A DNA stretch of 64,000 bases from a virus, in IMG/VR virus record IMGVR_UViG_3300020477_000014, positions 32,001 through 96,000 of that record; one strand, given 5' to 3'. The position numbers were made by a program, and so were the translations under genes. How positions within the stretch are numbered: position 1 is the first letter of the stretch; the number at the start of each line of letters is the position of its first letter. This document shows positions 1 to 17,840 of this stretch, one piece after another. A model generated the notes under the pieces. The model saw only the letters and a list, made by a program, of their open reading frames with translations. It did no database searches and was not told the origin of the DNA.

Positions 1-2
1 TC

Positions 3-2458: not shown

Positions 2459-3316
2459 ATGTCTCAAGTTATATTTTTGTCCGATATGTTTGTGGAACAA
2501 TACGCCGGCGGAGCAGAGCTTACTAGTGAATCTATCATTAAGGCTGCTCCCGAAGGCATTATTATTAAGAAAATTCTTACTTCTACTTTGACGCAGAGGA
2601 TGATCGATCATCATAAAGAGTATTTGTGGGTAATTTGCAATTTTGCTGGCTTATCGGATGAGTTTAAAATATATTTTTGTAAGAATAAGATATCTTATAC
2701 TATTATTGAATATGATTATAAATTTTGTAAATATCGCTCCATGGAGAAACATGAGTATGCAGAGGGAAAAGCATGCGATTGTAATGAACTCCCGTTTGGT
2801 AAAATTAATAAAATATTTTATGGATATGCAAAACAGATTTGGTTTATGAGTGCCAAACAACAAAATATTTTTCACGATAAAGTACAGACTATTAAAGAAG
2901 AAAATACCAGCGTGTTGTCTTCTATTTTTGCCGATGGCGATTTGAGGTTTATTGACAACATTCGTCATAATGAAAAGAATTCTAAATATATTATTTTGCA
3001 ATCTCCTTCTTGGATCAAGGGAACAGGAGAGTGTGTAGAATATGCTAAATCTCATAATTTGGATTTTGATTTGGTCCATAATCTACCGTATCCCGAGTTG
3101 TTGATAAAACTCTCTCAATCCCGCGGACTTATATTTAGACCTTTAGGGGGAGACACATGCCCTCGAATTGTGATTGAGGCAAAGTTGCTGGGTTGCGAAT
3201 TGGTTTTAAATGGAAACGTGCAACACAAAGACGAAAAATGGTTCAATGCCAGCTATGAAGAGATGGTTGCCTATCTTAAAGGTCGTGCTAGTGTTTTTTG
3301 GAAGCATTATGAATAA
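2459..3316 (+). CDS. Divergent GT-B (GT4-like) glycosyltransferase
   Basis: N-terminal GGAELT and C-terminal GGDTCPRIVIEAKLLGCEL, a variant of the E-x-F-G...EA...G motif. Confidence 0.7.
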   Translation: MSQVIFLSDMFVEQYAGGAELTSESIIKAAPEGIIIKKILTSTLTQRMIDHHKEYLWVICNFAGLSDEFKIYFCKNKISYTIIEYDYKFCKYRSMEKHEYAEGKACDCNELPFGKINKIFYGYAKQIWFMSAKQQNIFHDKVQTIKEENTSVLSSIFADGDLRFIDNIRHNEKNSKYIILQSPSWIKGTGECVEYAKSHNLDFDLVHNLPYPELLIKLSQSRGLIFRPLGGDTCPRIVIEAKLLGCELVLNGNVQHKDEKWFNASYEEMVAYLKGRASVFWKHYE

Positions 3317-3998
3317 GAAAACTATAATTTTAATGGGGAACGGTCCATCCCTGAAGGACGTAGACTTTTCGTTGTTAGATGGTTACGATACTTTTGGTCT
3401 CAATTCGGCATATCGCGCATATGAAAGAATGGACTGGTGGCCTACTTATCACGGCTGTTTTGATTATAGAGTTACAGATAATCATAGGAGCAAATTCGAG
3501 GACTTGATAACCAACAGTCCTATTAAGAAATGTTTCTATATTCGTGATTTTGGAACAAATGATGGGTTTCAATATGTAAACTTGCAACAATATGGTACAA
3601 CGCAAAAGTTCAATAATTCGCTAGCTGATTTTGATTCATTTCATGATAATGGAAATTCAGGCGCCAATGCTAGTTCAGCGGCTGTTTGCATGGGTTACAA
3701 TAGGATCATACTTTTGGGCGTAGATTGCAATTATGTAGAATTCGTCGACGGCTCCCAACGAGATGGTCCGGGGCTGAAAATGGAGAAAACGCCCGAACAT
3801 AATCCTAATTATTGGTTTGATGATTACCAGCAAAAGGGCGATGAATACAATATTCCTCGAGGGATGGATTTTCATATGCCTACCTGGAATGCGTTTGCTT
3901 ACAATGCTGCTCATAATAATATAGAAGTCATTAATTGCAGCCCCATTACCACCTTAAGGTGCTTTAAGAGAATGAACATAGAGGAAGCGCTAAGGTGA
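3309..3998 (+). CDS. CstII (GT42)/DUF115 Maf-like sialyltransferase-fold protein
   Basis: ATG at 3309 overlaps the upstream stop. IILMGNGPSLK, FGLN and IILLGVDC match the CstII-type GNGPSL / N / GxD motifs. Confidence 0.7.
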   Translation: MNKKTIILMGNGPSLKDVDFSLLDGYDTFGLNSAYRAYERMDWWPTYHGCFDYRVTDNHRSKFEDLITNSPIKKCFYIRDFGTNDGFQYVNLQQYGTTQKFNNSLADFDSFHDNGNSGANASSAAVCMGYNRIILLGVDCNYVEFVDGSQRDGPGLKMEKTPEHNPNYWFDDYQQKGDEYNIPRGMDFHMPTWNAFAYNAAHNNIEVINCSPITTLRCFKRMNIEEALR

Positions 3999-6502: not shown

Positions 6503-6714
6503 AGAAATTCAACCGCGGCGACTTGGTGAAATGGTATGAGGTATACAATGATGTCTACATTACCAAAGATTATGGAACCGGAATCGTGATGGAGAGAATG
6601 GAACAAAATTACGGCTTCATCGATGGACCGGTTACTACCTACAGGGTATATAGATTAAAATATAGTGATATTGTTTTGTATGGGTCGGACTTAATAGAGG
6701 AAATAAATGAATAA
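6484..6714 (+). CDS. Small hypothetical protein (SH3/KOW-like GDLVKW motif)
   Basis: Fills the gap between gmd and the next gene with overlaps at both ends. FNRGDLVKW...GIV pattern. Start uncertain. Confidence 0.5.
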   Translation: MGKRTIKKFNRGDLVKWYEVYNDVYITKDYGTGIVMERMEQNYGFIDGPVTTYRVYRLKYSDIVLYGSDLIEEINE

Positions 6715-8371
6715 AAGATTATGCGTGTTGCAGGTCACTCCTACCGAACCTAATAGGGATCATATCGAATTATTTCACAATAAAAAAGATTGTGATTTTT
6801 ATTTTGTAACACATGATAGCCAACATGCTGATGCATTAAAATTTTGTCCCAACACTACGTGGACAGATACAAGAAATATATTAGCTGAAATGGTTCCTAA
6901 AAAATATGATTATTATGCTTTTGTGGATTATGATTATCGTTTTCATCCCCAAGGCGATCTTGGGGTACTTGAGCAGATATTGTCTGATTTAGAACATTTC
7001 AATCCAGCAGTTTTGACTTGTTATCCGGGTTCTGGGCTTATAACTCCCTTTGCTTCCGATATGGATTATAAAAACAAACATACCCACTCTGTAATACCTT
7101 TTACGCATTGTGGAATGAAGGTGGTCCACCATAGCCTTATGAATTGGTTTTTCCCAATGGTTACGAAATTTGGTGGTGGAGTGGAAGCATGTCATCTTTT
7201 TAACATAATGGAGCTTCCTTTTTTGCAAAATATTGTTTGCACTCATCAAATTGTATATGATAATGGAGTTACTGACATGAATGCGCCACACAATCGCGAT
7301 GGTGCACAATCTAAATTGAACATGGACAAGATGTGGTCATGGTTGTATCCTTATTTTAACAAAAGAAAAACCCTAAGAGATAAAGAAGTAAAACTCAGGT
7401 GGGGCGACAGTATCCCAACACGTATCGAGGAATACACTTCATATACTAATTCACTAACAATTAAAGAGACGTACGTCGGCTTATTGACTGGAAAAGTGAT
7501 TCCCAGTCCGGCAGAAAAAGAGGTAGATTATTACAGTTTAAAATATAAAGATAAAATTAAGAAGTTTTTCGATATAAATCATGAACATTTTGCTCCCAAA
7601 TTTGGAAATCTAAAATCTAGAAATGATACAATTGTTATTGTAGGAAATGGACCTTCTTTAAAAGAGGAATATTTCGAGATTTTACGACGCGATGATATTG
7701 ATACTTTCGGATTGAACGTTGCATATCGTTTTTTTGAGAAGATGAATTGGTATCCTAAGTTTTATGGATGTTTTGATTACGCTGCCACGAACACCCACAG
7801 ATCCAGTATTGCCTCTTTTATACGAGATAAGGATTGTCCTATAGAAAAGTTTTTCTTATTGGAAAGACCTAGTATCGAGGCAAGACTAAGCAACACTAAG
7901 TTGTATTTCGATGAGGACGTCCGCGGCGATCGTAAATATGTAGAAAGACCCCATAATCAAGACGGAATCGGATGGCCCACGTGGGGCACCAGGAATAATA
8001 AGATATCTTGCACGGGCGCAAATGCAATTCGCACCGCAATGGAATTAGGATACAAAAAGATTATTTTAATTGGTCATGATGCCAGCTACACTCCTTCGAA
8101 AAAAATCGAGGGACATTCTCAAGTATCGTCGGACAGATATGAGGTGACGGAAAAATCTCAAAATCCTAATTATTTTTGGCAAGATTATTACGAGAAGGGA
8201 GATATTTATAATAAGCCGGGGGATGCATTACCTGCATGGAAAAATATGGCTGATTGTGTAAGCCAAACTTATCCACATGTGGATGTAGTTAATTGCTCGA
8301 AGAACTCTAGAGTAACTTTTTTTCGGTTTGGTGAGTTTTTTAAAGAGATTGGGGTAAAAAATGAAGACTAA
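6707..8371 (+). CDS. Two-domain glycosyltransferase: N-terminal GT-A-like plus C-terminal CstII/DUF115-like
   Basis: N-terminal YAFVDYD (DxD). From about 7620, IVIVGNGPSLK, FGLNVAYR and IILIGHD form a clear paralog of 3309-3998. Confidence 0.7.
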   Translation: MNKRLCVLQVTPTEPNRDHIELFHNKKDCDFYFVTHDSQHADALKFCPNTTWTDTRNILAEMVPKKYDYYAFVDYDYRFHPQGDLGVLEQILSDLEHFNPAVLTCYPGSGLITPFASDMDYKNKHTHSVIPFTHCGMKVVHHSLMNWFFPMVTKFGGGVEACHLFNIMELPFLQNIVCTHQIVYDNGVTDMNAPHNRDGAQSKLNMDKMWSWLYPYFNKRKTLRDKEVKLRWGDSIPTRIEEYTSYTNSLTIKETYVGLLTGKVIPSPAEKEVDYYSLKYKDKIKKFFDINHEHFAPKFGNLKSRNDTIVIVGNGPSLKEEYFEILRRDDIDTFGLNVAYRFFEKMNWYPKFYGCFDYAATNTHRSSIASFIRDKDCPIEKFFLLERPSIEARLSNTKLYFDEDVRGDRKYVERPHNQDGIGWPTWGTRNNKISCTGANAIRTAMELGYKKIILIGHDASYTPSKKIEGHSQVSSDRYEVTEKSQNPNYFWQDYYEKGDIYNKPGDALPAWKNMADCVSQTYPHVDVVNCSKNSRVTFFRFGEFFKEIGVKNED

Positions 8372-8795
8372 AAACGATAGTGATCTAAAGAGAGTGCTGG
8401 AAAAGGACGGCGTTCATTGTTTGGAATTAAAGAAATATGAAAATTGTTCTACTATAAATTTAGCTGAATTGAGAGAAGATTTGGGCATGGGGTCTTGGGC
8501 AGTGAGAATTGCTTACAACGATCTTTTTGGTGGAGTAGTCATTCAGCAACAGCCCGGCGAGGGAAATCGAAAACACTTCCATCATGATGCAGACGAGAAT
8601 TGGGTAATTTTAGATGGAGAGTGGGAATGGTGGATTGATGGCATTGGAAAACGCCGAGTGAAACAACATGATATAATAGTAGTGCCCCGAGGCGTTTGGC
8701 ACCAAATAACGTGCATAGGAGATTCGCCAGGAGTACGGTATGCAATTACACGACCGGATGTAGACCATGTATACGAAGACAACAACGATAAATAA
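8361..8795 (+). CDS. Cupin domain protein
   Basis: KHFHHDADENWVILDGE...VVPRGVWHQI cupin_2 motifs. Confidence 0.85.
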   Translation: MKTKNDSDLKRVLEKDGVHCLELKKYENCSTINLAELREDLGMGSWAVRIAYNDLFGGVVIQQQPGEGNRKHFHHDADENWVILDGEWEWWIDGIGKRRVKQHDIIVVPRGVWHQITCIGDSPGVRYAITRPDVDHVYEDNNDK

Positions 8796-9501
8796 TATTA
8801 CTTTTAATTATTCTAACAAGATTGTGGTAGTAGTAGGGGGATCCCGTGGCATTGGCAAGGAAATCTGCAAGCAATTTGTTTTGGCTGGCGCTACGGTCTA
8901 TTGTTTATCACGAACGCCGCTTAATACAAAAGGAGTGACACACATTGTGTGTGATATATCTATCGAGAAAGATATTGACAAAGCTATCGCACAATTGGAG
9001 TCTATTGATTTTTTGATTAATGTAGCCGGCACCAACTTATGTGAGCCGATTGAAAATATAACAACCACAGAATGGGACCGGCTGATGAACACGAATTTGA
9101 AATCGTTTTTTTTGATTTCTAAAAAGGTGATTCCTTTGATGAAGGAGAAGAATTCCGGTCGCATTGTTAATGTCTCTTCTATTGCCGGCAGACATAAGAG
9201 CGTGGTTAGCGGCGTACATTATACATCTAGCAAATATGGTATTGTGGGATTAACTAAGCAGTTGGCACATGAGGTATCTCGATATAATATTTTGGTAAAC
9301 TGCGTGTGCCCAAGCCAAACAAGAACTGAAATGTTGGAAGCTTCCATGACTGAGGAACAGTTGCATAATTTAGAAAAACAAATTCCTGTACGTCGAATTG
9401 CTACCACTGTTGAGCAATCGTTACCTGTGTTGTTTCTTTGTTCTGATGGTGCTTCTTACATTAGTGGCGCTACAATCGATATTAACGGGGGTCAATTCTA
9501 A
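8767..9501 (+). CDS. Classical SDR oxidoreductase
   Basis: GGSRGIG, INVAG, VNVSS, YTSSK (YxxxK), VNCVCP, IDINGG. Confidence 0.92.
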   Translation: MYTKTTTINNITFNYSNKIVVVVGGSRGIGKEICKQFVLAGATVYCLSRTPLNTKGVTHIVCDISIEKDIDKAIAQLESIDFLINVAGTNLCEPIENITTTEWDRLMNTNLKSFFLISKKVIPLMKEKNSGRIVNVSSIAGRHKSVVSGVHYTSSKYGIVGLTKQLAHEVSRYNILVNCVCPSQTRTEMLEASMTEEQLHNLEKQIPVRRIATTVEQSLPVLFLCSDGASYISGATIDINGGQF

Positions 9502-10179
9502 ATGCATAGGGATATAGATATAAACGTTTTGATTGCTGTTAGAGGCGGTTCTAAGCGCATTCCTGGAAAGAATACGAGACCTTTCGGGGGAGCCTCGATG
9601 CTTGAATTGAAAATTCAACAAGCTCTTCGATTAAAAGAAGTATCTGCGGTGGTGGTGACGTCAGAAGATGACTCCATGTTGCAGATAGCAGAAGATCTGG
9701 GAGCAGTTGCTATGAAGAGGGATTCTTATTATGCTAGCGATACGGTTCCAATGGGAGAAGTATATGTTCATCTTGCGTCATCTCTTAGTTGTAAGGATGT
9801 TTTGTGGACGCCGGTCACAAGTCCATTGGTGACCGATAAAACCATACAAGAGTGTATAACTTTTTATAAAACCAGGCCAGAGTTTGATTCTGTAGTAACC
9901 ACCAATCTGGTCAAGGAATATATGTGGTTGGGCGATAAAGCCATCAACTATGATCCACTGAATCATCCCAGATCCCAGGATTTGCCGGATGTTTATGCTT
10001 TGAATTTCGCAGCCAACATTCTTTCCCGCGAGATGATGATCAAAAACAGGAACATTATAGGAGATAAATTTTATCCTTATATGATAGACGATGTTGAATC
10101 TGTGGACGTGGATACTGAATTTGATTTTGTGATAGCAGAGTTTTTATATAATAACAGAGGAAAAGATTGTGACATATAA
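9502..10179 (+). CDS. Acylneuraminate/ulosonate cytidylyltransferase (NeuA/KdsB-like)
   Basis: IAVRGGSKRIPGKNTR, TSED, SPL, SVDVDTEFDF. Confidence 0.9.
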   Translation: MHRDIDINVLIAVRGGSKRIPGKNTRPFGGASMLELKIQQALRLKEVSAVVVTSEDDSMLQIAEDLGAVAMKRDSYYASDTVPMGEVYVHLASSLSCKDVLWTPVTSPLVTDKTIQECITFYKTRPEFDSVVTTNLVKEYMWLGDKAINYDPLNHPRSQDLPDVYALNFAANILSREMMIKNRNIIGDKFYPYMIDDVESVDVDTEFDFVIAEFLYNNRGKDCDI

Positions 10180-10843
10180 GATAGAGGTACCCCCAATGTG
10201 CGAACCGGAAATCTTGCCAAAAGTAATACCATATTTTAAAAACCGATCTAAATTTGTGGATGTTGGGGCATCTGATGGCTGGTATACATATGTTGCCGCC
10301 AAGGAAATGCCATCAGGTTCGACAATAATTGGTTTCGAACCGGTACCATGGATTTTTGACAAATACAAGAATCATTATGTTGCATCTTGGGCGCCAGAGG
10401 ATTGGTTTAAAAACAAAACAATACACTGTTATAACCAAGTGGTTTCGGATCAATCCGGAATAGATACAAAGTTTTATAAAACAAAAAACCATTCAGGAGT
10501 TATGGATCCTCTTTTATTACTAAAAAAACCAGAAGCTTTTGAGGAAAGTTGGGATATTCCAACGACTAAGTTGGATGATTTTTTGGATCCTTCTGAAAAG
10601 GGAGTATTAATAAAAATTGACGTGGAAGGCGGTGAAGATAAGGTTATCAAGGGCGGTAACTATTATTTTTCCAATTGTGTAGAGTGTTATGTGTTTTTAG
10701 AATTGCACAATTCTTATCTCTTAAATAAAGGAGTGCCGCCACAAACCGTTGTGAAATATTTCACAGATCGAGGTTATGAAAAAATTAAATTAGGTGGCCA
10801 CGGGCGAATCGAATGGTATATTTTTAGGAAAGAAATCAAATGA
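10169..10843 (+). CDS. FkbM-family methyltransferase
   Basis: FVDVGASDG, IGFEPVP, LIKIDVEGGEDKVIKG. Confidence 0.9.
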   Translation: MTYKIEVPPMCEPEILPKVIPYFKNRSKFVDVGASDGWYTYVAAKEMPSGSTIIGFEPVPWIFDKYKNHYVASWAPEDWFKNKTIHCYNQVVSDQSGIDTKFYKTKNHSGVMDPLLLLKKPEAFEESWDIPTTKLDDFLDPSEKGVLIKIDVEGGEDKVIKGGNYYFSNCVECYVFLELHNSYLLNKGVPPQTVVKYFTDRGYEKIKLGGHGRIEWYIFRKEIK

Positions 10844-11778
10844 GAAATATCAAGATCTTTATTGTTACATATAAGAGGGGAGATGTCCTAAATAATACTT
10901 TGCAAAAGTTATTCAAAGAAACCGATTTCTCCTTAATACCGAATACCGAAGTTAATATTATTAATAATCATTCAGATTTTTGGATTGATGATGAATTTCG
11001 GGACCAAGTGAATGTTATACACAATTCTACGCGCCCCGATTGGGATGTTGGTAATCTCGCACGTAATTGGAACGAAGCACTTTTGCACGGCTTTAAAGAT
11101 TTAAAAAACCCAGACTCTAAGGTGGTGGTAACGATGCAGAACGACATTGTTTTGCACCCCAATTGGGCCACCAATTTGCTTAAAATGCATAAAAAATATA
11201 ATTTCATAACTGGTTGCGCAGGTGATAATATTATTAGTTATACGGCGGAGGCAGTGAAGAAGATCGGATTATGGGACGAAAGGTTTTGTTCCATATCTCA
11301 CAAAGAAGCCGATTATTATATTAGAGCGCTTATTTATAACAAAGAATATTCCATTATAAATGATCAGTTTCATAAGCGTTATCTAAATGCAGACGCATGG
11401 CTTCCTTTGGATACTGGTGATTACTTAGGCAATGAAAAAGAATGGATGAAGATAAAAGCCACCAACTTGTCTACAGAAGCAATGAACCATAGCACTCAGA
11501 TATTTTACTGGAAATGGAAAAACACATGGAAGACTCAACCTTCTTATAATGGATGGTTCGTTAATTGGTCGTCGGATTTTATAACCGATCCGCCATCTCC
11601 CCCGACCGTTCCGAATTTCATAAAATATTATTATTTTGAAAAAGATCTTGACAATTTGCAAAAAAAGAATTATATTGGTTGGAGAAGTGGCGATCTTTGG
11701 TTGAGATCTACGGGGAACCTGGACATTGATGAACTTCCACCTCCCAGAGAATCAACTACAGGAGAAATTTCGAAATGA
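10840..11778 (+). CDS. GT2-like (GT-A) glycosyltransferase
   Basis: IFIVTYKR...TL, MQNDI, IGLWDERF...EADYYIR. Confidence 0.75.
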   Translation: MRNIKIFIVTYKRGDVLNNTLQKLFKETDFSLIPNTEVNIINNHSDFWIDDEFRDQVNVIHNSTRPDWDVGNLARNWNEALLHGFKDLKNPDSKVVVTMQNDIVLHPNWATNLLKMHKKYNFITGCAGDNIISYTAEAVKKIGLWDERFCSISHKEADYYIRALIYNKEYSIINDQFHKRYLNADAWLPLDTGDYLGNEKEWMKIKATNLSTEAMNHSTQIFYWKWKNTWKTQPSYNGWFVNWSSDFITDPPSPPTVPNFIKYYYFEKDLDNLQKKNYIGWRSGDLWLRSTGNLDIDELPPPRESTTGEISK

Positions 11779-12470
11779 TAACTACTAAAAATTTACAAAT
11801 AATAGACACTGCGCAAACTCTTTATGATGCTTTTAACGATTTTATTTTGAGCGACGATACCAAAGTGTTCGGAAAATTACTCGCAAGAGCCATTTTGCTC
11901 GATCGAGTAAAAGATGTTCCTGGTGATATAATAGAGTGTGGTGTTTTTAAAGGGACCGGTGTTGTTTCTTTTCTAAAAATAAAAAAATATTTATGCCCCA
12001 ATTCTCATAAAAAAGTTATTGGTTTTGATTTTTTTGATACTGACGGATTGTTAAAAAGCCTATCAAACCAAGACCAAGAGGCTATGAGTGCATTATTCAA
12101 AGATAGAGGATTCGAACATGAGCAGGGATTTGTTTCTTATTTAAAGCAGTCAATTGAATCCTTTGGGTTTCAAGAGCACGAATTTGAACTTGTACAAGGA
12201 GATATTTCAAAAACTATAAAAGAATATATATCCGATAAGCCTGGATTGAAAATTTCTCTTTTATATATTGATTTAGATATTGAAAAGCCAACTTATGATG
12301 TTTTGTGCGCCACTTGGGATAGAATGTCGAAGGGGGGCATGATAGTGTTTGATGAATATGCATATCATTGCTGGTCGGAGTCGATTGGTGTGGATAGGTT
12401 TTTCAAAGATAAGAATGTAGTAGTGAGGTCTCTAAATTTCATGGGACCCACAGCATATGTAATAAAATAA
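11775..12470 (+). CDS. TylF/MycF-family O-methyltransferase
   Basis: VPGDIIECGVFKG, GFDFF, LYIDLDIEKPT, GGMIVFDEY. Confidence 0.9.
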   Translation: MITTKNLQIIDTAQTLYDAFNDFILSDDTKVFGKLLARAILLDRVKDVPGDIIECGVFKGTGVVSFLKIKKYLCPNSHKKVIGFDFFDTDGLLKSLSNQDQEAMSALFKDRGFEHEQGFVSYLKQSIESFGFQEHEFELVQGDISKTIKEYISDKPGLKISLLYIDLDIEKPTYDVLCATWDRMSKGGMIVFDEYAYHCWSESIGVDRFFKDKNVVVRSLNFMGPTAYVIK

Positions 12471-12483
12471 AAAGAGAACAAAC

Positions 12484-13215
12484 ATGAATATATTGATACC
12501 AATGGCTGGCGAAGGCAGTCGATTTAAAAAAGAAGGCTTTAAAAAACCAAAACCACTAATAGACGTTAACGGAAAACCTATGATTAAGTGGGTTGTGGAT
12601 AATGTCGGAATTGACGGAAAATATATTTTTATCGTACAAAAGGCACATACAATAAAGTACCCATATTTAGTTGATGAGCTTACAACTATGGCAAAGGACG
12701 TAGAGGTGTTGACGGTAGATGGATTAACAGAAGGCGCCGCATGTACAGCATTGATAGCCAAACACTTGATAGACAATGACGAGCCATTACTAATTTGCAA
12801 TTCAGATCAGTGGGTGGATTGGGTCCCAGAACATTTTTTAAAATTTATAAAGAGAAAAGATTGTGATGGGGCATTATTAACTTTTTTCTCTGATAGTCCA
12901 AAGCATTCTTATTCTCGATACAATTATAATACCAGAGTGGTAACAGAAGTTGCCGAAAAACAAGTTATAAGCAATTTTGCCACTGTGGGAATATATTATT
13001 GGAGAAAGGGTAGCGAATTCGTGGAATGTGTTAATAAAATGATAGACAAGAATCTAAGAGTTAATAATGAATTTTATTTATGCCCAGCCTATAATGAGTT
13101 GATTTTCCACAAAGACGGGAAGGTGGAATTGTATCCTATTTGTGAGATGAGGGGAATGGGTACTCCTATGGAATTAGAAAGGTTTTTACTCTTATTAGAG
13201 AAAGAAGGCGTTTAA
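12484..13215 (+). CDS. Sugar-phosphate nucleotidyltransferase (NTP_transferase family)
   Basis: ILIPMAGEGSRF...KPKPLI, TEGAACT, ICNSDQ, VAEK, ATVGIYYW, EFYLCPAYN, MGTP. Confidence 0.92.
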   Translation: MNILIPMAGEGSRFKKEGFKKPKPLIDVNGKPMIKWVVDNVGIDGKYIFIVQKAHTIKYPYLVDELTTMAKDVEVLTVDGLTEGAACTALIAKHLIDNDEPLLICNSDQWVDWVPEHFLKFIKRKDCDGALLTFFSDSPKHSYSRYNYNTRVVTEVAEKQVISNFATVGIYYWRKGSEFVECVNKMIDKNLRVNNEFYLCPAYNELIFHKDGKVELYPICEMRGMGTPMELERFLLLLEKEGV

Positions 13216-14399
13216 TGAAGTTTTTTCGTCAAAGTGTAGAAAAAGAGAAATACATCATAGTGGAGTATTTTTTAAAAAGCAAGACCACATTGAGAGATGC
13301 TGCATGGTCTTTGGCAATAGGTCAAAGTGTAGGAAACCCCAATGTCAGAAATCATTGGGAAACCGATGAGCTTTTTGAGAACCATTCTTGTTTGATTATG
13401 GGTGATGAAGAGAAGTTAAAACAAATAAGCGAAGGTAAAGTTAAAATAGCCTTTCCAATAGCAAATACAGACTTTAAGACAGATGGAGTGTCTCATTTGC
13501 TTTGTCAATTTATGGGCGGACAAATGGATATAGATATTGTTCAAAAATGCCACATGTTGAATGTAGTACTACCTCAGCATGTTGAAGATAAATATTTTTT
13601 AGGACCAAAATACGGCATTGAAGGTATCAGAGATTTTACTAATAGTCACGATAAGCCTCTTTTTGGAGGGATTGTTAAGCCCAAGATTGGCGTTACAAGT
13701 AGCGTGTTGCTTGAAATGGTACGAGAGATGGTAGAGGGGGGCATCAATTTCATCAAAGAAGATGAGATCATGTCAAACCCTGCTTGTTGCCCAATAGAAG
13801 AAAGAGTACCTTTAATTATGGATTATCTCAAAGGCAAGGATGTGATTTATGCTGTTTGTATTAATTGTGATCCGCTGCATGTTATTGATAGAGTTAAAAG
13901 AGTTCATGAATTAGGAGCCAACGCTGTCCATATCAATTTTTGGAGCGGACTTGGAGTTTATAAATCAATTAGAGAATTGGATTTGCCAATGTTTATTCAC
14001 TTTCAAAAAAGTGGCGACAAAGTATTAACAAACAAGAATCATGATTATCATATTTCTTGGGACGTTGTGTGTGATCTGGCAGGTCTTATGGGTGTGGATT
14101 TTATACACGCTGGAATGTGGGGTGGCTACATGTCAGATAATGAACAGGAATTAAAGAACACTTTATCTGTTTTGCACAACAGGAGTGTAATGCCGGCTCT
14201 AAGTTGCGGAATGCATGCAGGTCTAATTCAAGCAATAAACAAAAGATTTGGAACAAATTATATGGCTAATGTCGGCGGCGCTATACATGGACACCCTAAC
14301 GGCTCTAAAAGTGGCACCATGGCGATAAGACAGAGTGTAGATGGCGAACATGGACAAGAATATGAAATTGCGATAAAAAAATGGGGGATCGTAAAGTGA
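13215..14399 (+). CDS. RuBisCO-like protein (form IV, RLP)
   Basis: GPKYGIEGIR, GGIVKPKIG, NFIKEDE, DFIHAG, LSCGMH, VGGAIHGHP follow the RuBisCO large-subunit barrel motifs. Loop-6 Lys is absent. Confidence 0.92.
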   Translation: MKFFRQSVEKEKYIIVEYFLKSKTTLRDAAWSLAIGQSVGNPNVRNHWETDELFENHSCLIMGDEEKLKQISEGKVKIAFPIANTDFKTDGVSHLLCQFMGGQMDIDIVQKCHMLNVVLPQHVEDKYFLGPKYGIEGIRDFTNSHDKPLFGGIVKPKIGVTSSVLLEMVREMVEGGINFIKEDEIMSNPACCPIEERVPLIMDYLKGKDVIYAVCINCDPLHVIDRVKRVHELGANAVHINFWSGLGVYKSIRELDLPMFIHFQKSGDKVLTNKNHDYHISWDVVCDLAGLMGVDFIHAGMWGGYMSDNEQELKNTLSVLHNRSVMPALSCGMHAGLIQAINKRFGTNYMANVGGAIHGHPNGSKSGTMAIRQSVDGEHGQEYEIAIKKWGIVK

Positions 14400-14423
14400 C
14401 TGACATTTTTTGGAGAACCATTA

Positions 14424-14867
14424 GTGAAAATGATTGCACATAGAGGAAATCTCAGAGGGCCGAACCCGGACCAAGAGAATAAACCAGAGTATATAGAGGC
14501 GGCATTGGCGGAACACTACGATGTGGAAGTGGACGTATGGCGATCTGAAAACAAGTGGTATCTAGGTCACGACGAACCACAATATGAGATAGATTCAGAA
14601 TTTCTCGTAAATGAGAGAATATGGTGTCATGCAAAGAATTTACATGCATTTCAAGATTTGTTGGTATTAGATGCGCATTGTTTTTGGCACCAAAAGGATG
14701 ATTATACCTTGACAAGTAGTAATTTTATTTGGGCGTATCCTGGCCAACCATTGTCGCCGATGTCCATTTGTGTAATGCCTGAATTAACAGCTTATACCAC
14801 AACAGATGTCTTAAGGTGTGCCGGGATCTGTTCCGATTGGATAGAGAAATTTGGGGAAATTTTATGA
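14424..14867 (+). CDS. Small GDPD/PLC-like phosphodiesterase-fold protein
   Basis: MIAHRGN, ENKP, DVEVDVW, LGHD, WCHAKN. GTG start with GGAGA 7 nt upstream. Confidence 0.75.
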   Translation: MKMIAHRGNLRGPNPDQENKPEYIEAALAEHYDVEVDVWRSENKWYLGHDEPQYEIDSEFLVNERIWCHAKNLHAFQDLLVLDAHCFWHQKDDYTLTSSNFIWAYPGQPLSPMSICVMPELTAYTTTDVLRCAGICSDWIEKFGEIL

Positions 14868-15544
14868 TATTGGCTTGGCAGCAAATTCCTTCTCCAATGG
14901 TTTCAGAGATCTTGTGTTGTAATTCTGCTGGCATAGTGTTGGATTTGGAACATGGGTGTTTTAATAATGAGACTCTTTACACTTGTATTCAAATTATTAA
15001 ATCTAAAAATAAAAAATGCATAGTTAGGCTGACAGAAGTTTCCAAAACAATAATTCGCTATTGTTTGGATGCCGGCGCTGATGGATTAATTTTTTCTACA
15101 ATTGAAACAACAGAACAATGTGAAAAAATAATGGAATATAGCTACTATGCTCCCAAGGGCAAGCGAGGCTTGGGGTTGGTCCGCCAAAATCTATGGGGTG
15201 AGAAAAACCTTTTGTCACCAGATCCTATTATTATACCCCAAATCGAAACAAAGGATGCTGTGGATAATTTGGAAAACATCTTAAAATTTAATTTCGATTA
15301 TTATTTAATAGGCCCTTATGATCTGTCTTTAAGTTTAAAAATCCCGGGAAAATTTGACAATCCTCAATTTATATGTTATATTAATAAAGTGAATGAATTG
15401 ATAGAAAGGTCCAGGCTGGCAGTTCATATTCCCAATGACGTTCCTAATCAAATTAGCAAATATAGGGATTATGGAATAAAATGCCTGGGCATGGACACGA
15501 TAGGGCTATTAGAATATATGAAGGAGAACAACAAGCATGCTTAA
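14864..15544 (+). CDS. HpcH/HpaI class II aldolase family protein
   Basis: ATGA-coupled start at 14864. VLDLEHG, IVRL, LDAGADG, YAPKGKRGLG, IPQIET, IGPYDLSLSL. Confidence 0.88.
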   Translation: MILAWQQIPSPMVSEILCCNSAGIVLDLEHGCFNNETLYTCIQIIKSKNKKCIVRLTEVSKTIIRYCLDAGADGLIFSTIETTEQCEKIMEYSYYAPKGKRGLGLVRQNLWGEKNLLSPDPIIIPQIETKDAVDNLENILKFNFDYYLIGPYDLSLSLKIPGKFDNPQFICYINKVNELIERSRLAVHIPNDVPNQISKYRDYGIKCLGMDTIGLLEYMKENNKHA

Positions 15545-16514
15545 TTTCGAAAATTTAGGAGAAAGATTTGTTCAAGTAGTTAACGGATCGGATTGGCTAG
15601 AATTACAAGAAAAATTTAACAAATGTGATGACATATACGTGTTGGGTCATGGAGGAAATTTAGCCGTGGCTGATCATGCTGCTGTAGATATTACTCGCTT
15701 ATCTAACGGACAAAAGAATGCTATTTGCCCCAGTAGTGGTGTTGTAGCCACCTCTTTTATCAATGACACCAATTTTGAGCAGTGGATGGTAAATTGGTTA
15801 TCTTGTCGTACCAATACGAGAACTGAAGCACAAATGAAGAAATCGTTAGTACTGGGAATATCGTCTTCTGGCGCCTCTATCGATGTTTTAAAAGCACTAC
15901 AGTGGGCGAATGACAACGGGATGGAAATAGGGATGATTAGCTCCAAGGATCTTACTTATGATATTTCTAATTTGACTAAAGTTATATTGGGCGCCGAATA
16001 TTACCACACCGCAGAGGTTCTAACACTTCTTTTAACCTACCAACTAACTCATGGATCAGGGAAAGAGTGCCCCCCTATAGGACAAAATACTCCTGATGCA
16101 TTGCGCGCACTAAACTGGAAAGGGGGTCACATCCGGGAACACAGCTATCCGGATGAAAAAATTAATTTAGGAATCGATTTTGATAAAGTGATTCATGGTT
16201 GTTCGCGAGGATATTATGATGGCACTATTTATGATCCCCCTATTCATGGAGCCGCCGAGGCACTTGAAAAATTATCTCAAAGTTATACTTTAATTATTTA
16301 TACCTGTAAAGCCAAGCCAGATCGTGGACTTGTGAATGGAAAAACAGGAACAGCTTTAGTTTGGGAATGGCTAGAAAAAAATAATCTTTCTCAATTTGTA
16401 AGTAAAGTTACAGCAGAAAAGCCACGAGCAGTGTGCTATATTGACGACAAGGCTGTACGATTTATCGATTGGGAATCTTGCATGAAAGAGTTGGAGGAAA
16501 TAGGCATTCTATGA
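15537..16514 (+). CDS. SIS-domain sugar-phosphate isomerase (GmhA-like) fused to a HAD-family phosphatase
   Basis: N-terminal GHGGNLAVADHAAVD and LGISSSG resemble GmhA GNGGS..AQH..E / GISTSG. C-terminal GIDFDKVIH (DxD), IYTC and YIDDKA. Confidence 0.8.
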   Translation: MLNFENLGERFVQVVNGSDWLELQEKFNKCDDIYVLGHGGNLAVADHAAVDITRLSNGQKNAICPSSGVVATSFINDTNFEQWMVNWLSCRTNTRTEAQMKKSLVLGISSSGASIDVLKALQWANDNGMEIGMISSKDLTYDISNLTKVILGAEYYHTAEVLTLLLTYQLTHGSGKECPPIGQNTPDALRALNWKGGHIREHSYPDEKINLGIDFDKVIHGCSRGYYDGTIYDPPIHGAAEALEKLSQSYTLIIYTCKAKPDRGLVNGKTGTALVWEWLEKNNLSQFVSKVTAEKPRAVCYIDDKAVRFIDWESCMKELEEIGIL

Positions 16515-17323
16515 TCTTGATAACAGGACATAAAGGCTATATCGGAAGTCATCTCTATAAGGCTTTAAAATCATTTGACATGGAAGTGTATGGGATTGAT
16601 TTAAAAGACGGTCACGATATCGCTTATTGTTTGCCTGATCGAGATTTCGATTATGTATTCCATCTAGCAGCACTACCACAAGTCGAATATTGCAACAAGC
16701 ACCCTAGTTATGCACTTAAGCAAAATGTGGGTGCAACTTCGATACTTCTCGAGTGGGCTTATGGACACAATGTCAAGAAGGTCATTTTTTCATCTTCAGC
16801 AGCAGTGTATGGCGATGGAGGTGGTCCTAAATCTCCTTATGGTTTACATAAGTTGATGGCAGAAATGGAGTGTAAACTATATTCAGATTTTTATAATATA
16901 GATACGGTTTGTTTGCGATATTTTAATGTATATTCAGAAGATCAACCGTACGGCGGCTCTTATTCTACGGTTATTGCAGCTTGGATGGAGATGATGAGGA
17001 ATGGTCATCCTTTGCGTTTGGATGGCACAGGCAAACAAACGAGAGACTTTGTTCATGTAGAAGATATAGTGGCTGCTAATATATTTTGCATGAAGAGTAA
17101 ATTAAAATTTAATGGAGAGTGTTATGATGTGGGCTCTGGTCAGTCGACTGCGCTTAACACTATAAAATATTATATCGATCATCGATATTCTAATGTGAGT
17201 TGGTTATGGACCCCTGAAAGAGAGGGAGACATCTTTAATTCGGTTGCTGACATATCTAAGTTGGCAGAAATAGGATGGACACCACAAATTGACATAAAGA
17301 CTGGCTTATCTAGATGTTTTTAG
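16511..17323 (+). CDS. NAD-dependent epimerase/dehydratase (extended SDR)
   Basis: ATGA-coupled start. ILITGHKGYIG, HLAA, FSSSAAVYG, SPYGLHK, LRYFNVY, TRDFVHVEDI. Confidence 0.92.
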   Translation: MILITGHKGYIGSHLYKALKSFDMEVYGIDLKDGHDIAYCLPDRDFDYVFHLAALPQVEYCNKHPSYALKQNVGATSILLEWAYGHNVKKVIFSSSAAVYGDGGGPKSPYGLHKLMAEMECKLYSDFYNIDTVCLRYFNVYSEDQPYGGSYSTVIAAWMEMMRNGHPLRLDGTGKQTRDFVHVEDIVAANIFCMKSKLKFNGECYDVGSGQSTALNTIKYYIDHRYSNVSWLWTPEREGDIFNSVADISKLAEIGWTPQIDIKTGLSRCF

Positions 17324-17343: not shown

Positions 17344-17571
17344 ATGAACACAATCGATACAGATGAATTTAAGCTTTCTAATCAAGCGCTCGGCGCAATT
17401 ATGATGGCCCTTCAAGAGTCGCTCTTGAATGAGTTAGATATTGTTCCTATTTTGCAAGGCTTTGTTTTGAAAGAGGGTGATGACGGCTTAATTGTAATGA
17501 ACCCTCCTACGGTTCGCGTGAGCAACAATGACACCATAACTACGCAAGATTTAGAAAACATGGTAACCTGA
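17344..17571 (+). CDS. Hypothetical protein
   Basis: Strong RBS (AAGGAGA) and a coupled downstream gene. Confidence 0.7.
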   Translation: MNTIDTDEFKLSNQALGAIMMALQESLLNELDIVPILQGFVLKEGDDGLIVMNPPTVRVSNNDTITTQDLENMVT

Positions 17572-17840
17572 TGCCTAGGTATCGCTATCGCTGCGAAATA
17601 TGCGCAAACGAGGTGATGGTTTTTCATTTAATGTCTGAAAGCTACAACAACTGTCAGGTGTGTGATGGTGTTAATAGTATGGAAAAGATGTTAACCACCC
17701 CACTAAAGAAAATAGAAGAACAGGATCTCACTAATGATAGAAACTTAGGAGATCTGACGCACCAATATATTAAGGAAAATAGAGAAATTTTAGAAGAAGA
17801 ACGAAAAAAAGCAAAAAGAGAAACATATGAGCCGTCTTGA
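17571..17840 (+). CDS. FmdB-like zinc-ribbon protein
   Basis: MPRYRYRCEIC...CQVC, the typical MPxYxYxCxxC...CxxC. Confidence 0.8.
   Translation: MPRYRYRCEICANEVMVFHLMSESYNNCQVCDGVNSMEKMLTTPLKKIEEQDLTNDRNLGDLTHQYIKENREILEEERKKAKRETYEPS

What the first reader, a model, noticed from the sequence alone, without database searches (positions are those of the whole stretch)
12484..17323. Coupled six-gene unit (nucleotidyltransferase, RLP, GDPD-like, HpcH aldolase, SIS-HAD, epimerase): candidate new nucleotide-sugar pathway
Seen: the six genes are overlapping or nearly abutting (TAATG at 13213-13217, ATGA at 14864 and 16511, 8-nt overlap at 15537, 24-nt gap before 14424). Established: SIS isomerase + HAD phosphatase + nucleotidyltransferase + SDR epimerase is the skeleton of GmhA/GmhB/HddC-type heptose pathways, but those also need a sugar kinase, and none is in this window. 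Inference: the RLP and aldolase may build or rearrange the carbon skeleton (a branched or higher-carbon sugar) in place of the usual steps, giving an NDP-sugar for the neighbouring glycosyltransferases. I know of no described pathway with this gene set, which makes it the best candidate for an undescribed system here.
Basis: partly seen in the sequence, partly recalled or inferred. Interest (0 to 1): 0.85.

Follow-up and report, generated by a model that had tools for sequence, protein, structure and literature searches.

The report
Phage RuBisCO-like and aldolase sugar cassettes
The six tightly packed phage genes are real, but they belong to two separate, recurring sugar-building cassettes rather than one new six-step pathway: one pairs a RuBisCO relative that lacks the residues needed for CO2 fixation with a sugar-activating enzyme, and the other probably uses a pyruvate aldolase to make a sialic-acid- or Kdo-like sugar.

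Summary
The six ORFs, their start/stop overlaps and their family assignments are confirmed, and other marine metagenomes carry the same junctions. Tight coupling is normal in this 190-kb marine T4-like phage: 26 of 45 junctions in the window overlap or abut. Gene-neighbourhood surveys split the "unit" in two.

(A) Nucleotidyltransferase + RuBisCO-like protein (RLP), with a 147-aa mini-GDPD. RLP homologues sit beside this transferase in 78/80 viral and 14/16 cellular loci, and several metagenomic proteins fuse the two. None of the 80 viral loci has the aldolase and one has the SIS-HAD. In syntenic sister phages the same slot (GT2, TylF, mini-GDPD context) holds a beta-phosphoglucomutase-type HAD-nucleotidyltransferase fusion instead.

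(B) HpcH pyruvate aldolase + GmhA-like SIS-HAD phosphatase, with an SDR. In 10/10 further phage contigs the aldolase and SIS-HAD stay adjacent. Sialyltransferase-like genes accompany them in 10/10 and a CMP-sugar synthetase in 9/10, never an RLP. The phage has no NeuB or KdsA.

Best reading: one cassette makes an NDP-activated phosphosugar with help from a non-carboxylating RLP; the other makes a NeuB-independent CMP-ulosonic acid. The chemistry is inferred, not tested. This scan has reported both cassettes before on other DNA.

The parts
12484..13215 (+). Cassette A: 243-aa sugar-phosphate nucleotidyltransferase (short, single-domain)
   Evidence: PF00483 E 1e-7 and phrog_3980 E 3e-64. The best solved relative is 4EVW, an uncharacterised Vibrio NDP-sugar pyrophosphorylase, E 5e-12. 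It lies next to the RLP in 78/80 viral and 14/16 cellular loci. In the tree it sits in a 6-row RLP-linked clade with 96% support.
13215..14399 (+). Cassette A: 394-aa form-IV-like RuBisCO-like protein, non-carboxylating
   Evidence: PF00016 E 1.4e-34; it falls far below every NCBIfam cut-off (form III, MtnW, OiaX). Kept: K155-P-K157, K181/D183/E184, H298, S330/G332, G354-G355. Changed: Q264 for H294, K265 for R295, Y305 for K334, Q103 for N123, G36 for E60, N41 for T65. More than 2,500 homologues were found, some fused to PF00483.
14424..14867 (+). Shared by both cassette types: 147-aa miniature GDPD-fold phosphodiesterase-like protein
   Evidence: Invariant H6-R7-G8, E18-N19, E35/D37 and H49 (D50 in at least 90%) across 26 homologues. 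Profile hit to GDPD 7E0V, E 2e-4. AF2 model pLDDT 97. The top 22 VIA matches are GDPD/PLD-type barrels, Z 7.8-10.6 over about 140 residues. In other metagenomes it is fused to HAD, NTP-transferase, RLP, methyltransferases and transferase-like domains.
14864..15544 (+). Cassette B: 226-aa HpcH/HpaI class II pyruvate aldolase (ATG 14864 start favoured)
   Evidence: PF03328 E 7e-15; HpaI/RhmA/GarL models E 1e-17 to 1e-22. Best solved relative YfaU 2VWS, E 3e-18, with R55/E128/D153 aligned to YfaU R74/E153/D179. Homologues are 226-228 aa.
15537..16514 (+). Cassette B: 325-aa fusion of a GmhA-like SIS isomerase domain (1-180) and a capless HAD phosphatase domain (205-325)
   Evidence: No Pfam hit. 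Profile hit to GmhA 5I01, E 4e-7. AF2 model pLDDT 78. N-domain Z 19.0 to GmhA 1X92; C-domain Z 10.8 to HAD 2OBB. HAD motifs at D214-x-D216-x-V218, T256, K295, D303-D304. It immediately follows the aldolase in 10/10 extra contigs.
16511..17323 (+). Cassette B (variable member): 270-aa extended SDR, NDP-sugar epimerase/dehydratase type
   Evidence: PF01370 E 2e-45; GalE, TviC and heptose-epimerase models all below cut-off. It follows the SIS-HAD in L122 (57% id) and in 4 of 10 extra contigs. SDR hits in RLP loci are only 21-32% identical.
9502..10179 (+). Cassette B partner outside the given coordinates: CMP-ulosonic-acid synthetase-like cytidylyltransferase
   Evidence: PF02348 E 5e-14; PseF model E 9e-24, KdsB models E 1e-6 to 1e-8, all below cut-off. 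A CTP_transf_3 gene lies directly or closely upstream of the aldolase in 9/10 extra contigs and in 15/27 viral loci.
3210..3998 (+). Cassette B partner: MptE-like/CST-I-like putative ulosonic-acid transferase
   Evidence: PF01973 E 1.7e-7 (31.6 bits, below the 34.6-bit cut-off); PF06002 CST-I E 1e-3. The same pair of families lies next to CTP_transf_3 and the aldolase in L198, and next to the aldolase in L197.
6707..8371 (+). Cassette B partner: 554-aa protein with an MptE-like (Maf-type) domain
   Evidence: PF01973 E 1e-8. Homologues are present in 8/27 aldolase loci. The corresponding position in relatives holds 636-638-aa proteins with weak GT29 hits.
10840..12470 (+). Context genes kept on both sides of the swap: GT2 glycosyltransferase (10840-11778) and TylF-type methyltransferase (11775-12470)
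   Evidence: Pfam. They are 60-69% identical to the GT2 and TylF genes that flank the HAD-nucleotidyltransferase in syntenic sister phages such as L126.
8361..9501 (+). Cupin_2 protein (8361-8795) and classical SDR (8767-9501) that travel with the CTP_transf_3 gene
   Evidence: Pfam. The same trio is 65-76% identical in L124/L125 and appears in the same order in L201.

Best explanation
The six genes lie where two independent, recurring glycan-precursor cassettes meet, inside an island of at least 17 kb just upstream of the virion genes of a marine T4-like phage. Cassette A (12484-14867) is a nucleotidyltransferase plus a form-IV-like RuBisCO-like protein, followed by a miniature GDPD-fold phosphodiesterase. 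The RLP keeps the carbamyl-lysine/Mg site and one phosphate site but lacks the carboxylation residues. It is therefore inferred to enolise or isomerise a phosphorylated keto-sugar that the transferase then joins to a nucleotide. NTP+RLP behaves as one exchangeable unit: in syntenic sister phages the same slot, between orthologous GT2, TylF and mini-GDPD genes, holds a beta-phosphoglucomutase-type HAD domain fused to a paralogous nucleotidyltransferase. The RLP therefore probably supplies the transferase with its phosphosugar by a different chemical route. Cassette B (14864-17323 plus 9502-10179 and the MptE-like genes upstream) is inferred to make a CMP-activated 3-deoxy-2-ulosonic (Kdo/Kdn/sialic-like) acid without NeuB or KdsA. 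The proposed steps are: the SIS domain turns a ketose phosphate into an aldose phosphate; the HpcH aldolase adds pyruvate; the fused HAD domain removes the phosphate; the CTP_transf_3 enzyme makes the CMP-sugar; MptE-like/sialyltransferase-like enzymes transfer it; the SDR is an optional tailoring step. Shown here: gene content, residues, folds, co-occurrence and fusions. Inferred: every substrate, product and reaction order.
For: Split of the unit (table unless stated). RLP-centred viral loci: NTP 78/80, mini-GDPD 69/80, aldolase 0/80, SIS-HAD 1/80. Aldolase-centred viral loci: RLP 0/27, SIS-HAD 11/27, CTP_transf_3 15/27. In ten further contigs the aldolase is directly followed by the 325-aa SIS-HAD in 10/10. 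CTP_transf_3 is upstream in 9/10, sialyltransferase-like genes in 10/10, RLP in 0/10. The minimal block in L198 reads GT7, MptE-like, CTP_transf_3, HpcH, SIS-HAD, then structural genes.

NTP-RLP coupling. Eight NTP-RLP fusion clusters of 634-651 aa. The pairing holds in cellular genomes down to 37% RLP identity: a complete Pelagibacter chromosome, SAR11 SAGs, Verrucomicrobiae, Bacteroidota, CPR, Nanoarchaeota. Mini-GDPD-RLP and mini-GDPD-NTP fusions also exist.

Swap. L126 and its relatives read GT2 (69%), HAD-NTP, TylF (60%), mini-GDPD (52%), HpcH (56%), SIS-HAD (66%), then the same structural genes. The HAD domain is beta-PGM type, E 1e-22 to 1e-30, below the subfamily cut-off. Over 155 viral loci: RLP only 73, HAD only 60, both 10. 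HAD-fused transferases form one nested clade, and the window's transferase lies in an RLP-linked clade.

Active sites. RLP residues; aldolase R55/E128/D153; HAD motifs and folds.

The phage genome has no NeuB or KdsA. The junctions are confirmed in other samples.
Against: No substrate or product is known for any of the enzymes. The RLP, the transferase, the SIS domain and the cytidylyltransferase all score below every curated equivalog cut-off. The mini-GDPD lies between the two cassettes and co-occurs with both (69/80 and 19/27), so some cross-talk cannot be excluded. In this phage all six genes are translationally coupled. Counts are of loci fetched by similarity, include near-duplicates, and rest on tblastn with the window's proteins, so divergent homologues may be missed. 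The RLP/HAD contrast is partly a sampling effect. The key nodes of the transferase tree have only 84-85% SH-aLRT support in a quick search. GmhA is the closest fold for the SIS domain, which fits a heptose route as well as an ulosonic one. The host could supply NeuB or KdsA products.
Confidence: 0.6

Rival explanations
1. One reading: all six genes form one pathway in which the RLP and the aldolase together build or rearrange the carbon skeleton of a new branched or higher-carbon NDP-sugar.
For: All six genes are translationally coupled. There is no GHMP kinase, NeuB or KdsA in the genome. The mini-GDPD co-occurs with both halves.
Against: RLP and aldolase never co-occur in the 80 + 27 + 10 other loci examined. 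Coupling of this kind is the norm across the window. Sister phages keep the aldolase half with no RLP, and RLP-type relatives such as L002-L005 keep the RLP half with no aldolase.
Confidence: 0.08
2. Heptose-type reading: the GmhA-like SIS domain, the GmhB-like HAD domain, the nucleotidyltransferase (HddC-like) and the SDR (HldD-like) make an NDP-heptose. The kinase is borrowed from the host or bypassed by a mutase. The aldolase and RLP are accessory.
For: The best fold match of the SIS domain is GmhA, Z 19. PHROG 1238 'phosphoheptose isomerase' hits the C-terminal part (residues 207-321), E 5e-13. The SDR hits the heptose-epimerase model at E 9e-29. Sister phages carry a beta-PGM-type HAD fused to the transferase, which could replace kinase plus phosphatase. 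The Pelagibacter locus has a GT9 heptosyltransferase nearby.
Against: The SIS-HAD is tied to the aldolase (10/10 adjacent) and occurs with CTP_transf_3 but without any NTP_transferase in L198. It is present in only 1/80 RLP loci and 0/48 transferase-centred loci. hhalign of the SIS-HAD profile against E. coli GmhB found nothing. All heptose models are far below cut-off. No kinase was found.
Confidence: 0.15
3. Cassette A makes not a glycosyl donor but a donor of a phosphodiester-linked substituent (an NDP-activated polyol or keto-sugar phosphate, as with CDP-ribitol, CDP-glycerol or the MeOPN cofactor). The mini-GDPD would be the enzyme that forms or trims the phosphodiester on the glycan.
For: The mini-GDPD keeps a full phosphodiesterase motif. 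Elsewhere it is fused to late-acting domains (GT61, WavE, DUF7796, methyltransferases) and once to an APS-kinase domain, as in 3'-phospho-nucleotide cofactors. O-methyltransferases accompany the cassette. The HAD subfamily includes polyol phosphatases.
Against: No such transfer reaction is known to me for GDPD enzymes. The APS-kinase fusions (two clusters, P0134 and P0136) are rare, and no APS kinase was found in the 195 loci. A GT2 glycosyltransferase accompanies the cassette in this synteny group, in the window and in 18/27 aldolase loci, though in only 5/80 RLP loci.
Confidence: 0.12
4. The RLP is an auxiliary metabolic gene for host sulfur or nucleoside salvage (an MtnW-like enolase or an MTRu-1-P isomerase) and lies in the glycan island by accident.
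For: MtnW and form III models are its best named hits, E 1e-46 to 1e-47. A small cupin accompanies it in 58/83 RLP loci, which recalls the RLP-cupin pair of the Rhodospirillum rubrum MTA shunt (the shunt is from my own knowledge).
Against: Scores are a third of the curated cut-offs. No other salvage gene was seen in the loci. The constant partner is a nucleotidyltransferase, to which it is sometimes fused. The cellular loci are glycan islands.
Confidence: 0.05

Closest known systems
'Form IV-like' RuBisCO-related proteins of phages and Beckwithbacteria (Jaffe, Castelle, Dupont & Banfield 2019, PMC6389311)
   Same: A phage (myovirus)-borne, highly divergent RLP with only part of the RuBisCO active site. 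Beckwithbacteria and Patescibacteria relatives were also recovered here (L083, L090).
   Different: In the passages read, that paper left the function open and reported no gene-context analysis for the phage RLPs. Here the clade is tied to a nucleotidyltransferase (adjacent or fused), a small cupin and a mini-GDPD in glycan islands. Membership of that exact clade was not tested by a joint tree.
Characterised RLPs: DK-MTP-1-P enolase MtnW (2OEJ), the R. rubrum MTRu-1-P 1,3-isomerase, apiose-pathway OiaX
   Same: Same fold, with the carbamyl-Lys/Mg triad kept (K181, D183, E184). These enzymes use enolisation-type chemistry on a phosphorylated keto-sugar and lack the loop-6 lysine.
   Different: Similarity is only distant (best PDB E-value 2e-34; NCBIfam scores about a third of the cut-offs). 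The KPK motif is kept as in true RuBisCO, but Q103 sits where MtnW has its catalytic lysine. The context is biosynthetic (nucleotide activation), not salvage or catabolism.
Kdo and Kdn pathways (KdsD-KdsA-KdsC-KdsB; Kdn-9-P synthase, phosphatase, CMP-Kdn synthetase)
   Same: The same logic is inferred for cassette B: SIS isomerase, C-C bond-forming enzyme, capless HAD phosphatase, CTP_transf_3 activation, then sialyltransferase-like transfer.
   Different: The condensing enzyme is a pyruvate-dependent class II HpcH aldolase instead of a PEP-dependent KdsA or NeuB, both absent from the genome. The isomerase is GmhA-like rather than KdsD-like and is fused to the phosphatase. The sugar is unknown.
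NDP-heptose pathways (GmhA, HddA/HldE, GmhB, HddC/HldC, HldD)
   Same: A GmhA-like fold, a HAD phosphatase, a short NTP_transferase and an extended SDR are all present.
   Different: No kinase was found. The four genes do not co-occur outside this synteny group. All heptose-specific models are below cut-off.
Isomerase-mutase-pyrophosphorylase routes to NDP-sugars (e.g. PMI/PMM/ManC for GDP-mannose; beta-phosphoglucomutase)
   Same: Sister phages carry a beta-PGM-type HAD fused to the transferase, the layout expected for mutase followed by pyrophosphorylase. Some relatives add a PMI-like cupin.
   Different: In this window the HAD domain is absent and an RLP takes its place. No RLP is known to feed a nucleotidyltransferase.

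Membership tests
Carboxylating RuBisCO (forms I-III) | Carbamylated Lys201 with Asp203 and Glu204 as Mg ligands, and the Lys175/Lys177 pair | tested here: met
   K181, D183, E184 and K155-P-K157 are aligned and invariant in 17 homologues.
Carboxylating RuBisCO (forms I-III) | Loop-6 Lys334, His294, Asn123, Glu60 and Thr65, needed for CO2 addition and RuBP binding | tested here: not met
   Y305 (invariant), Q264 (invariant), Q103, G36 and N41 occupy these positions.
DK-MTP-1-P enolase (MtnW) | Score above the NCBIfam equivalog cut-off, and a catalytic Lys at the Asn123 position | tested here: not met
   158.6 bits against a cut-off of 409, and 125.8 against 513.6. The position holds Q103 where 2OEJ has K.
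'Form IV-like' phage RLP clade (Jaffe et al. 2019) | Placement in that clade in a joint RuBisCO/RLP tree | not tested
   No reference sequences of that study were at hand. Support is indirect only: myovirus origin, and Beckwithbacteria/Patescibacteria relatives at 57-61% identity.
Glycerophosphodiester phosphodiesterase (GDPD) superfamily | N-terminal HR(G/A)...EN...ExD...HD catalytic/metal motif | tested here: met
   H6-R7-G8, E18-N19, E35/D37 and H49 are invariant and D50 is in at least 90% of 26 homologues. Profile hit to 7E0V over these motifs, E 2e-4.
Glycerophosphodiester phosphodiesterase (GDPD) superfamily | GDPD-type barrel fold | tested here: met
   AF2 pLDDT 97. The top 22 VIA rows are GDPD/PLD enzymes, Z 7.8-10.6, about 140 of 147 residues, rmsd 3.3-3.9. 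Unrelated TIM barrels score Z 6.5 or less. Foldseek alone was weak (best E 0.016).
Glycerophosphodiester phosphodiesterase (GDPD) superfamily | Pfam GDPD model hit and full-length (about 220-250 aa) barrel | tested here: not met
   No Pfam family at E 0.01 or better. The protein is 147 aa. It is best called GDPD-like, not a GDPD.
HpcH/HpaI class II pyruvate aldolases | Pfam score above gathering cut-off, and the catalytic Arg and two metal carboxylates | tested here: met
   55.3 bits against a cut-off of 25. R55/E128/D153 align with YfaU R74/E153/D179 (the roles of these residues are from my own knowledge).
Phosphoheptose isomerase GmhA | SIS_2 fold with GmhA as closest structure, and a score above the equivalog cut-off | tested here: inconclusive
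   Fold Z 19.0 to 1X92, profile E 4e-7 to 5I01. But TIGR00441 gives 28.5 bits against a cut-off of 209, and other SIS enzymes (PHI, KdsD) score Z 15-16.
HAD phosphatases (GmhB/KdsC-type, capless) | DxDxT/V nucleophile motif, Thr/Ser, Lys and DD motifs, and the Rossmannoid HAD fold | tested here: met
   D214-F-D216-K-V218, T256, K295, D303-D304. Residues 205-325 match HAD structures at Z 9-10.8. Equivalence to GmhB in particular is inconclusive, because hhalign found no match.
NDP-heptose pathway | Heptose-7-P kinase (HddA or HldE) | tested here: not met
   No GHMP kinase domain in the whole phage record. PfkB-type kinases were not searched.
Kdo/sialic-acid-type CMP-ulosonic acid pathway | PEP-dependent synthase (KdsA or NeuB) | tested here: not met
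   PF00793 and PF03102 are absent from the whole phage record, while the control genomes were detected.
Kdo/sialic-acid-type CMP-ulosonic acid pathway | CMP-sugar synthetase (CTP_transf_3) and sialyl/ulosonyl-transferase-like genes in the cluster | tested here: met
   9502-10179: PF02348 52.9 bits against a cut-off of 22.6, PseF model E 9e-24. MptE-like proteins lie at 6707-8371 (35.5 bits against a cut-off of 34.6) and 3210-3998 (31.6 bits, below cut-off, with a weak CST-I hit).

The most novel reading that the evidence does not exclude
The RLP acts as a 'pseudo-mutase'. By a 1,3-ketol (enediol) shift of the kind known for the Rhodospirillum rubrum RLP, it would convert a pentose-phosphate-pathway ketose 5-phosphate (Xu5P or Ru5P) into the 1-phospho isomer, which the adjacent or fused nucleotidyltransferase then activates. 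The net result would match what the beta-phosphoglucomutase-type HAD domain achieves by phosphoryl transfer in sister phages. This would be the first biosynthetic, glycan-building role for the RuBisCO superfamily, and a case of non-homologous replacement of a phosphomutase by an enolising enzyme. Weak pointers: the HAD/RLP swap in an otherwise orthologous cassette, retention of one phosphate site, and a mini-GDPD fused to ribulose-phosphate 3-epimerase in one metagenomic protein.
Probability: 0.15. Interest if true: 0.85.

Novelty: new variant of a known kind. Interest (0 to 1): 0.62.

Why it matters
Phage RuBisCO-like proteins have been known since 2019 without a function. Here the clade is tied to a specific partner, a nucleotidyltransferase. 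A natural swap with a beta-phosphoglucomutase-type domain gives a concrete hypothesis that can be tested with a few purified proteins. If it holds, the RuBisCO fold gains a role in building surface sugars.

The second cassette would be a route to sialic-acid- or Kdo-like sugars that uses a pyruvate aldolase instead of the near-universal PEP-dependent synthases. Homology searches for NeuB or KdsA would then undercount such sugars in the ocean.

Both cassettes are abundant in marine T4-like phage contigs: more than 2,500 RLP and about 800 aldolase homologues were found. They are only sporadic in cells. One of 151 sampled genomes of the Pelagibacter order has the RLP. They lie at a fixed spot just upstream of the virion genes. 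That placement suggests a hot spot where phages exchange glycan-building cassettes, whether to decorate virions or to remodel the host surface.

Tried and rejected
- blastn of the 4.8-kb stretch against 50,697 GenBank phage records gave no match.
The transferase was used instead.
- hhalign of the SIS-HAD profile against E. coli GmhB found no meaningful match. Foldseek on the whole SIS-HAD model listed only SIS hits. The HAD domain appeared only in the Foldseek-independent search.
- Foldseek on the mini-GDPD model gave no match at E 0.001 or better. The ESM Atlas structure search returned only unnamed viral clusters.
- Ribulose-phosphate 3-epimerase and APS-kinase domains, each fused to the mini-GDPD in rare metagenomic proteins, were not found in any of the 195 loci held. 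They are treated as weak pointers only.
- Sequencing runs: no RNA holder is listed, so nothing can be said about expression.
- Literature: no paper was found that links RLPs to nucleotide sugars, or HpcH aldolases to cytidylyltransferases. 'IV-GOS' gave one review. The Tabita 2007 review is not held. Searches for CDP-2-glycerol and nonulosonic acid gave nothing useful.
- The careful tree search did not finish in time, so the quick IQ-TREE result was used.
- No complex prediction was run, because I do not claim that the proteins bind.
- I considered whether the window's Cupin_2 gene (8361-8795) is the RLP-linked 106-aa cupin and rejected it: tblastn finds it in no RLP locus, and it travels with CTP_transf_3 instead.

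Full report
WHAT IS THERE. The window is bases 32001-96000 of a 189,712-bp IMG/VR virus record that CheckV rates complete. All genes run on the + strand. Baseplate and tail genes follow downstream. There is no psbA, so it is a marine T4-like myovirus but not a typical cyanophage.

Short contigs identical to the window, from runs of two other studies, bridge each of the five internal junctions and the junction after the SDR. The order is therefore not an assembly artefact.

The coupling is not distinctive. Of 45 consecutive junctions in the window, 26 overlap or abut. The gaps flanking the six genes (13 and 20 nt) are no larger than the 24-nt gap inside them.

THE SIX PROTEINS.
- 12484-13215 is a short single-domain NTP_transferase. 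Its best solved relative is an uncharacterised Vibrio pyrophosphorylase.
- 13215-14399 is a RuBisCO-like protein. It keeps K155-P-K157, the K181/D183/E184 carbamate-Mg site, H298, S330/G332 and G354-G355. It has Q264, K265, Y305, Q103, G36 and N41 where a carboxylase needs H294, R295, K334, N123, E60 and T65. It scores about a third of the cut-offs of the form III, MtnW and OiaX models.
- 14424-14867 has no Pfam hit, but it carries an invariant HRG...EN...ExD...HD motif and hits a GDPD by profile. It folds with pLDDT 97 into a stripped-down barrel whose 22 best structural matches are GDPD/PLD enzymes, Z 7.8-10.6.
- 14864-15544 is an HpcH/HpaI pyruvate aldolase. Its Arg and two carboxylates align with those of YfaU.
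- 15537-16514 has no Pfam hit. Its model has a GmhA-like SIS domain (Z 19) and a capless HAD domain (Z 10.8), with the DxDxV, T, K and DD motifs.
- 16511-17323 is an extended SDR of the NDP-sugar epimerase/dehydratase type.

DO THE SIX BELONG TOGETHER?

Eighty viral loci were fetched with the RLP (55-82% identity) and probed with all window proteins:
- transferase 78/80
- mini-GDPD 69/80
- aldolase 0/80
- SIS-HAD 1/80
- SDR 14-15/80, at only 21-32% identity

Other recurrent partners are a 106-aa cupin-like ORF (56/80; sometimes fused to the transferase) and O-methyltransferases.

The RLP-transferase pairing also holds in cellular genomes. These include a complete Pelagibacter chromosome, SAR11 single-cell genomes, a Verrucomicrobiae chromosome, Bacteroidota at only 37% RLP identity, CPR bacteria and a Nanoarchaeote. 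In Pelagibacter it lies among LPS-type genes. It is rare there: only 1 of 151 sampled genomes of that order has it.

Fusions give independent support. There are eight clusters of transferase-RLP fusions, plus mini-GDPD-RLP, mini-GDPD-transferase and cupin-transferase-mini-GDPD fusions.

THE OTHER HALF. Twenty-seven viral loci fetched with the aldolase contain no RLP. Ten further places on contigs that carry five different aldolase homologues gave a consistent picture:
- the aldolase is immediately followed by a 325/326-aa SIS-HAD in 10/10
- a CTP_transf_3 gene lies upstream in 9/10
- sialyltransferase-like genes (MptE-like with CST-I, or weak GT29) in 10/10
- an SDR follows the SIS-HAD in 4/10
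- an RLP in 0/10

The smallest version, L198, reads GT7, MptE-like, CTP_transf_3, aldolase, SIS-HAD, and then the same small structural genes that follow 17323 in the window.

The window has the matching partners upstream: a PseF/KdsB-like cytidylyltransferase at 9502-10179 and MptE-like proteins at 3210-3998 and 6707-8371. The whole phage lacks NeuB and KdsA. The aldolase is therefore the only visible C-C bond-forming candidate.

A NATURAL SWAP. Syntenic sister phages (L121, L124-L128, L130, L146, L200-L205) read GT2, HAD-transferase fusion, TylF, mini-GDPD, aldolase, SIS-HAD, with or without an SDR, then structural genes. Identities to the window are GT2 64-69%, TylF 60-62%, mini-GDPD 49-52%, aldolase 56-68% and SIS-HAD 66-71%. 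The window has TylF, transferase, RLP in place of HAD-transferase, TylF.

The HAD domain is of the beta-phosphoglucomutase type. Of the 48 closest viral relatives of the window's transferase, 46 or 47, depending on the tblastn settings, carry this HAD domain. Over 155 viral loci, RLP and HAD rarely occur together: 73 have RLP only, 60 HAD only, 10 both. The small cupin goes with the RLP (58/83 against 1/72).

In a quick maximum-likelihood tree, the HAD-fused transferases form one nested clade (43 of 44). The window's transferase lies in a well-supported RLP-linked clade with L002-L004, L022 and L148. Transferase + RLP thus came in as a two-gene unit, replacing a paralogous HAD-transferase in a cassette whose other members stayed the same.

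MECHANISM (inferred). Cassette A: the RLP most likely enolises or isomerises a phosphorylated keto-sugar, and the transferase links the result to a nucleotide. The swap suggests that the RLP does the job of a mutase-type domain by other chemistry. The mini-GDPD, with an intact phosphodiesterase motif and many fusions to late-acting domains, either releases a phospho-alcohol or works on a phosphodiester at the transfer stage. I cannot tell which.

Cassette B: by analogy with KdsD-KdsA-KdsC-KdsB and the Kdn route, the steps would be ketose-P to aldose-P (SIS), pyruvate addition (HpcH), dephosphorylation (HAD), CMP activation (CTP_transf_3), and transfer (MptE-like/GT29-like). The starting sugar is unknown: Ru5P, F6P and S7P are all candidates. 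A heptose-type reading of the SIS-HAD, transferase and SDR remains possible, but the co-occurrence data fit it less well.

WHAT IS KNOWN. Jaffe et al. (PMC6389311) reported about 80 'form IV-like' RLPs on phage contigs and left the function open. I found no paper that links an RLP to a nucleotidyltransferase, or an HpcH aldolase to CMP-sugar synthesis.

This scan's own notes, which I read after forming the reading above, describe the RLP-transferase(-cupin-GDPD) cassette in at least 41 other genomes. They describe an aldolase-based CMP-acid-sugar cassette in at least 8. They agree with the results here. Notes on this same genome had raised the NeuB-less CMP route.

What this window adds is that the two cassettes lie side by side and were mistaken for one unit. 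It also shows the HAD/RLP exchange within an otherwise orthologous frame.

LIMITS. All chemistry is inferred. Counts are of similarity-fetched loci that include near-duplicates. Detection used tblastn with the window's proteins. The key nodes of the tree are weakly supported. No expression data could be obtained.

VERDICT. Each cassette is an undescribed variant of a known kind of pathway and can be tested with a few purified proteins.

Noticed in passing
window 1-17323 and 17344-18853; L121-L147, L197-L205: The glycan island always ends at the same small conserved genes (a 75-aa ORF, a Zn_ribbon_8 protein at 17571-17840, a 244-aa protein at 18119-18853) that open the virion module. Island content differs from phage to phage. 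This looks like a fixed hot spot for exchange of glycan cassettes.
   Followed up: partly
window 4941-5534: This ORF hits the DegT/DnrJ/EryC1 aminotransferase family but is only 197 aa, about half the usual length. It may be truncated, split or mis-started. It lies next to a full GDP-mannose 4,6-dehydratase (5531-6502, E 2e-116).
   Followed up: no
window 21327-27779 and 31534-43026: Two giant ORFs of 2,150 and 3,830 aa lie in the structural module, around baseplate-wedge-like genes. They were not examined.
   Followed up: no
metagenomic proteins P0134, P0136, P0155: In rare metagenomic proteins the mini-GDPD is fused to a full APS-kinase domain (E 2e-41) or to a full ribulose-phosphate 3-epimerase (E 9e-66). 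Neither partner occurs in the 195 loci held. They may hint at a 3'-phospho-nucleotide cofactor or at a pentulose-phosphate entry point.
   Followed up: partly
L015:8206-9276; P0220, P0239: Multi-domain proteins join the mini-GDPD to a DUF7796-like domain. P0220 (837 aa) and P0239 (1,162 aa) add HAD and nucleotidyltransferase domains. DUF7796/WavE-like proteins of about 240 aa (e.g. L019:9173-9910, L002:6529-7272) are frequent neighbours and may be the transferases of the activated unit.
   Followed up: partly
L084 (Ca. Pelagibacter sp. Uisw_094 chromosome), 758-9194: A complete SAR11 chromosome carries both a HAD-transferase fusion and the transferase + RLP + mini-GDPD set a few kb apart, next to a GT9 heptosyltransferase and a D-2-hydroxyacid dehydrogenase. 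Only 1 of 151 sampled genomes of that order has the RLP.
   Followed up: partly
window 12432-12800 (- strand): A 122-aa antisense ORF inside the transferase gene recurs in 7 loci. It is most likely a shadow of the conserved sense gene rather than a gene.
   Followed up: no
If real, the phage does encode a mutase elsewhere. I did not check it.
   Followed up: no
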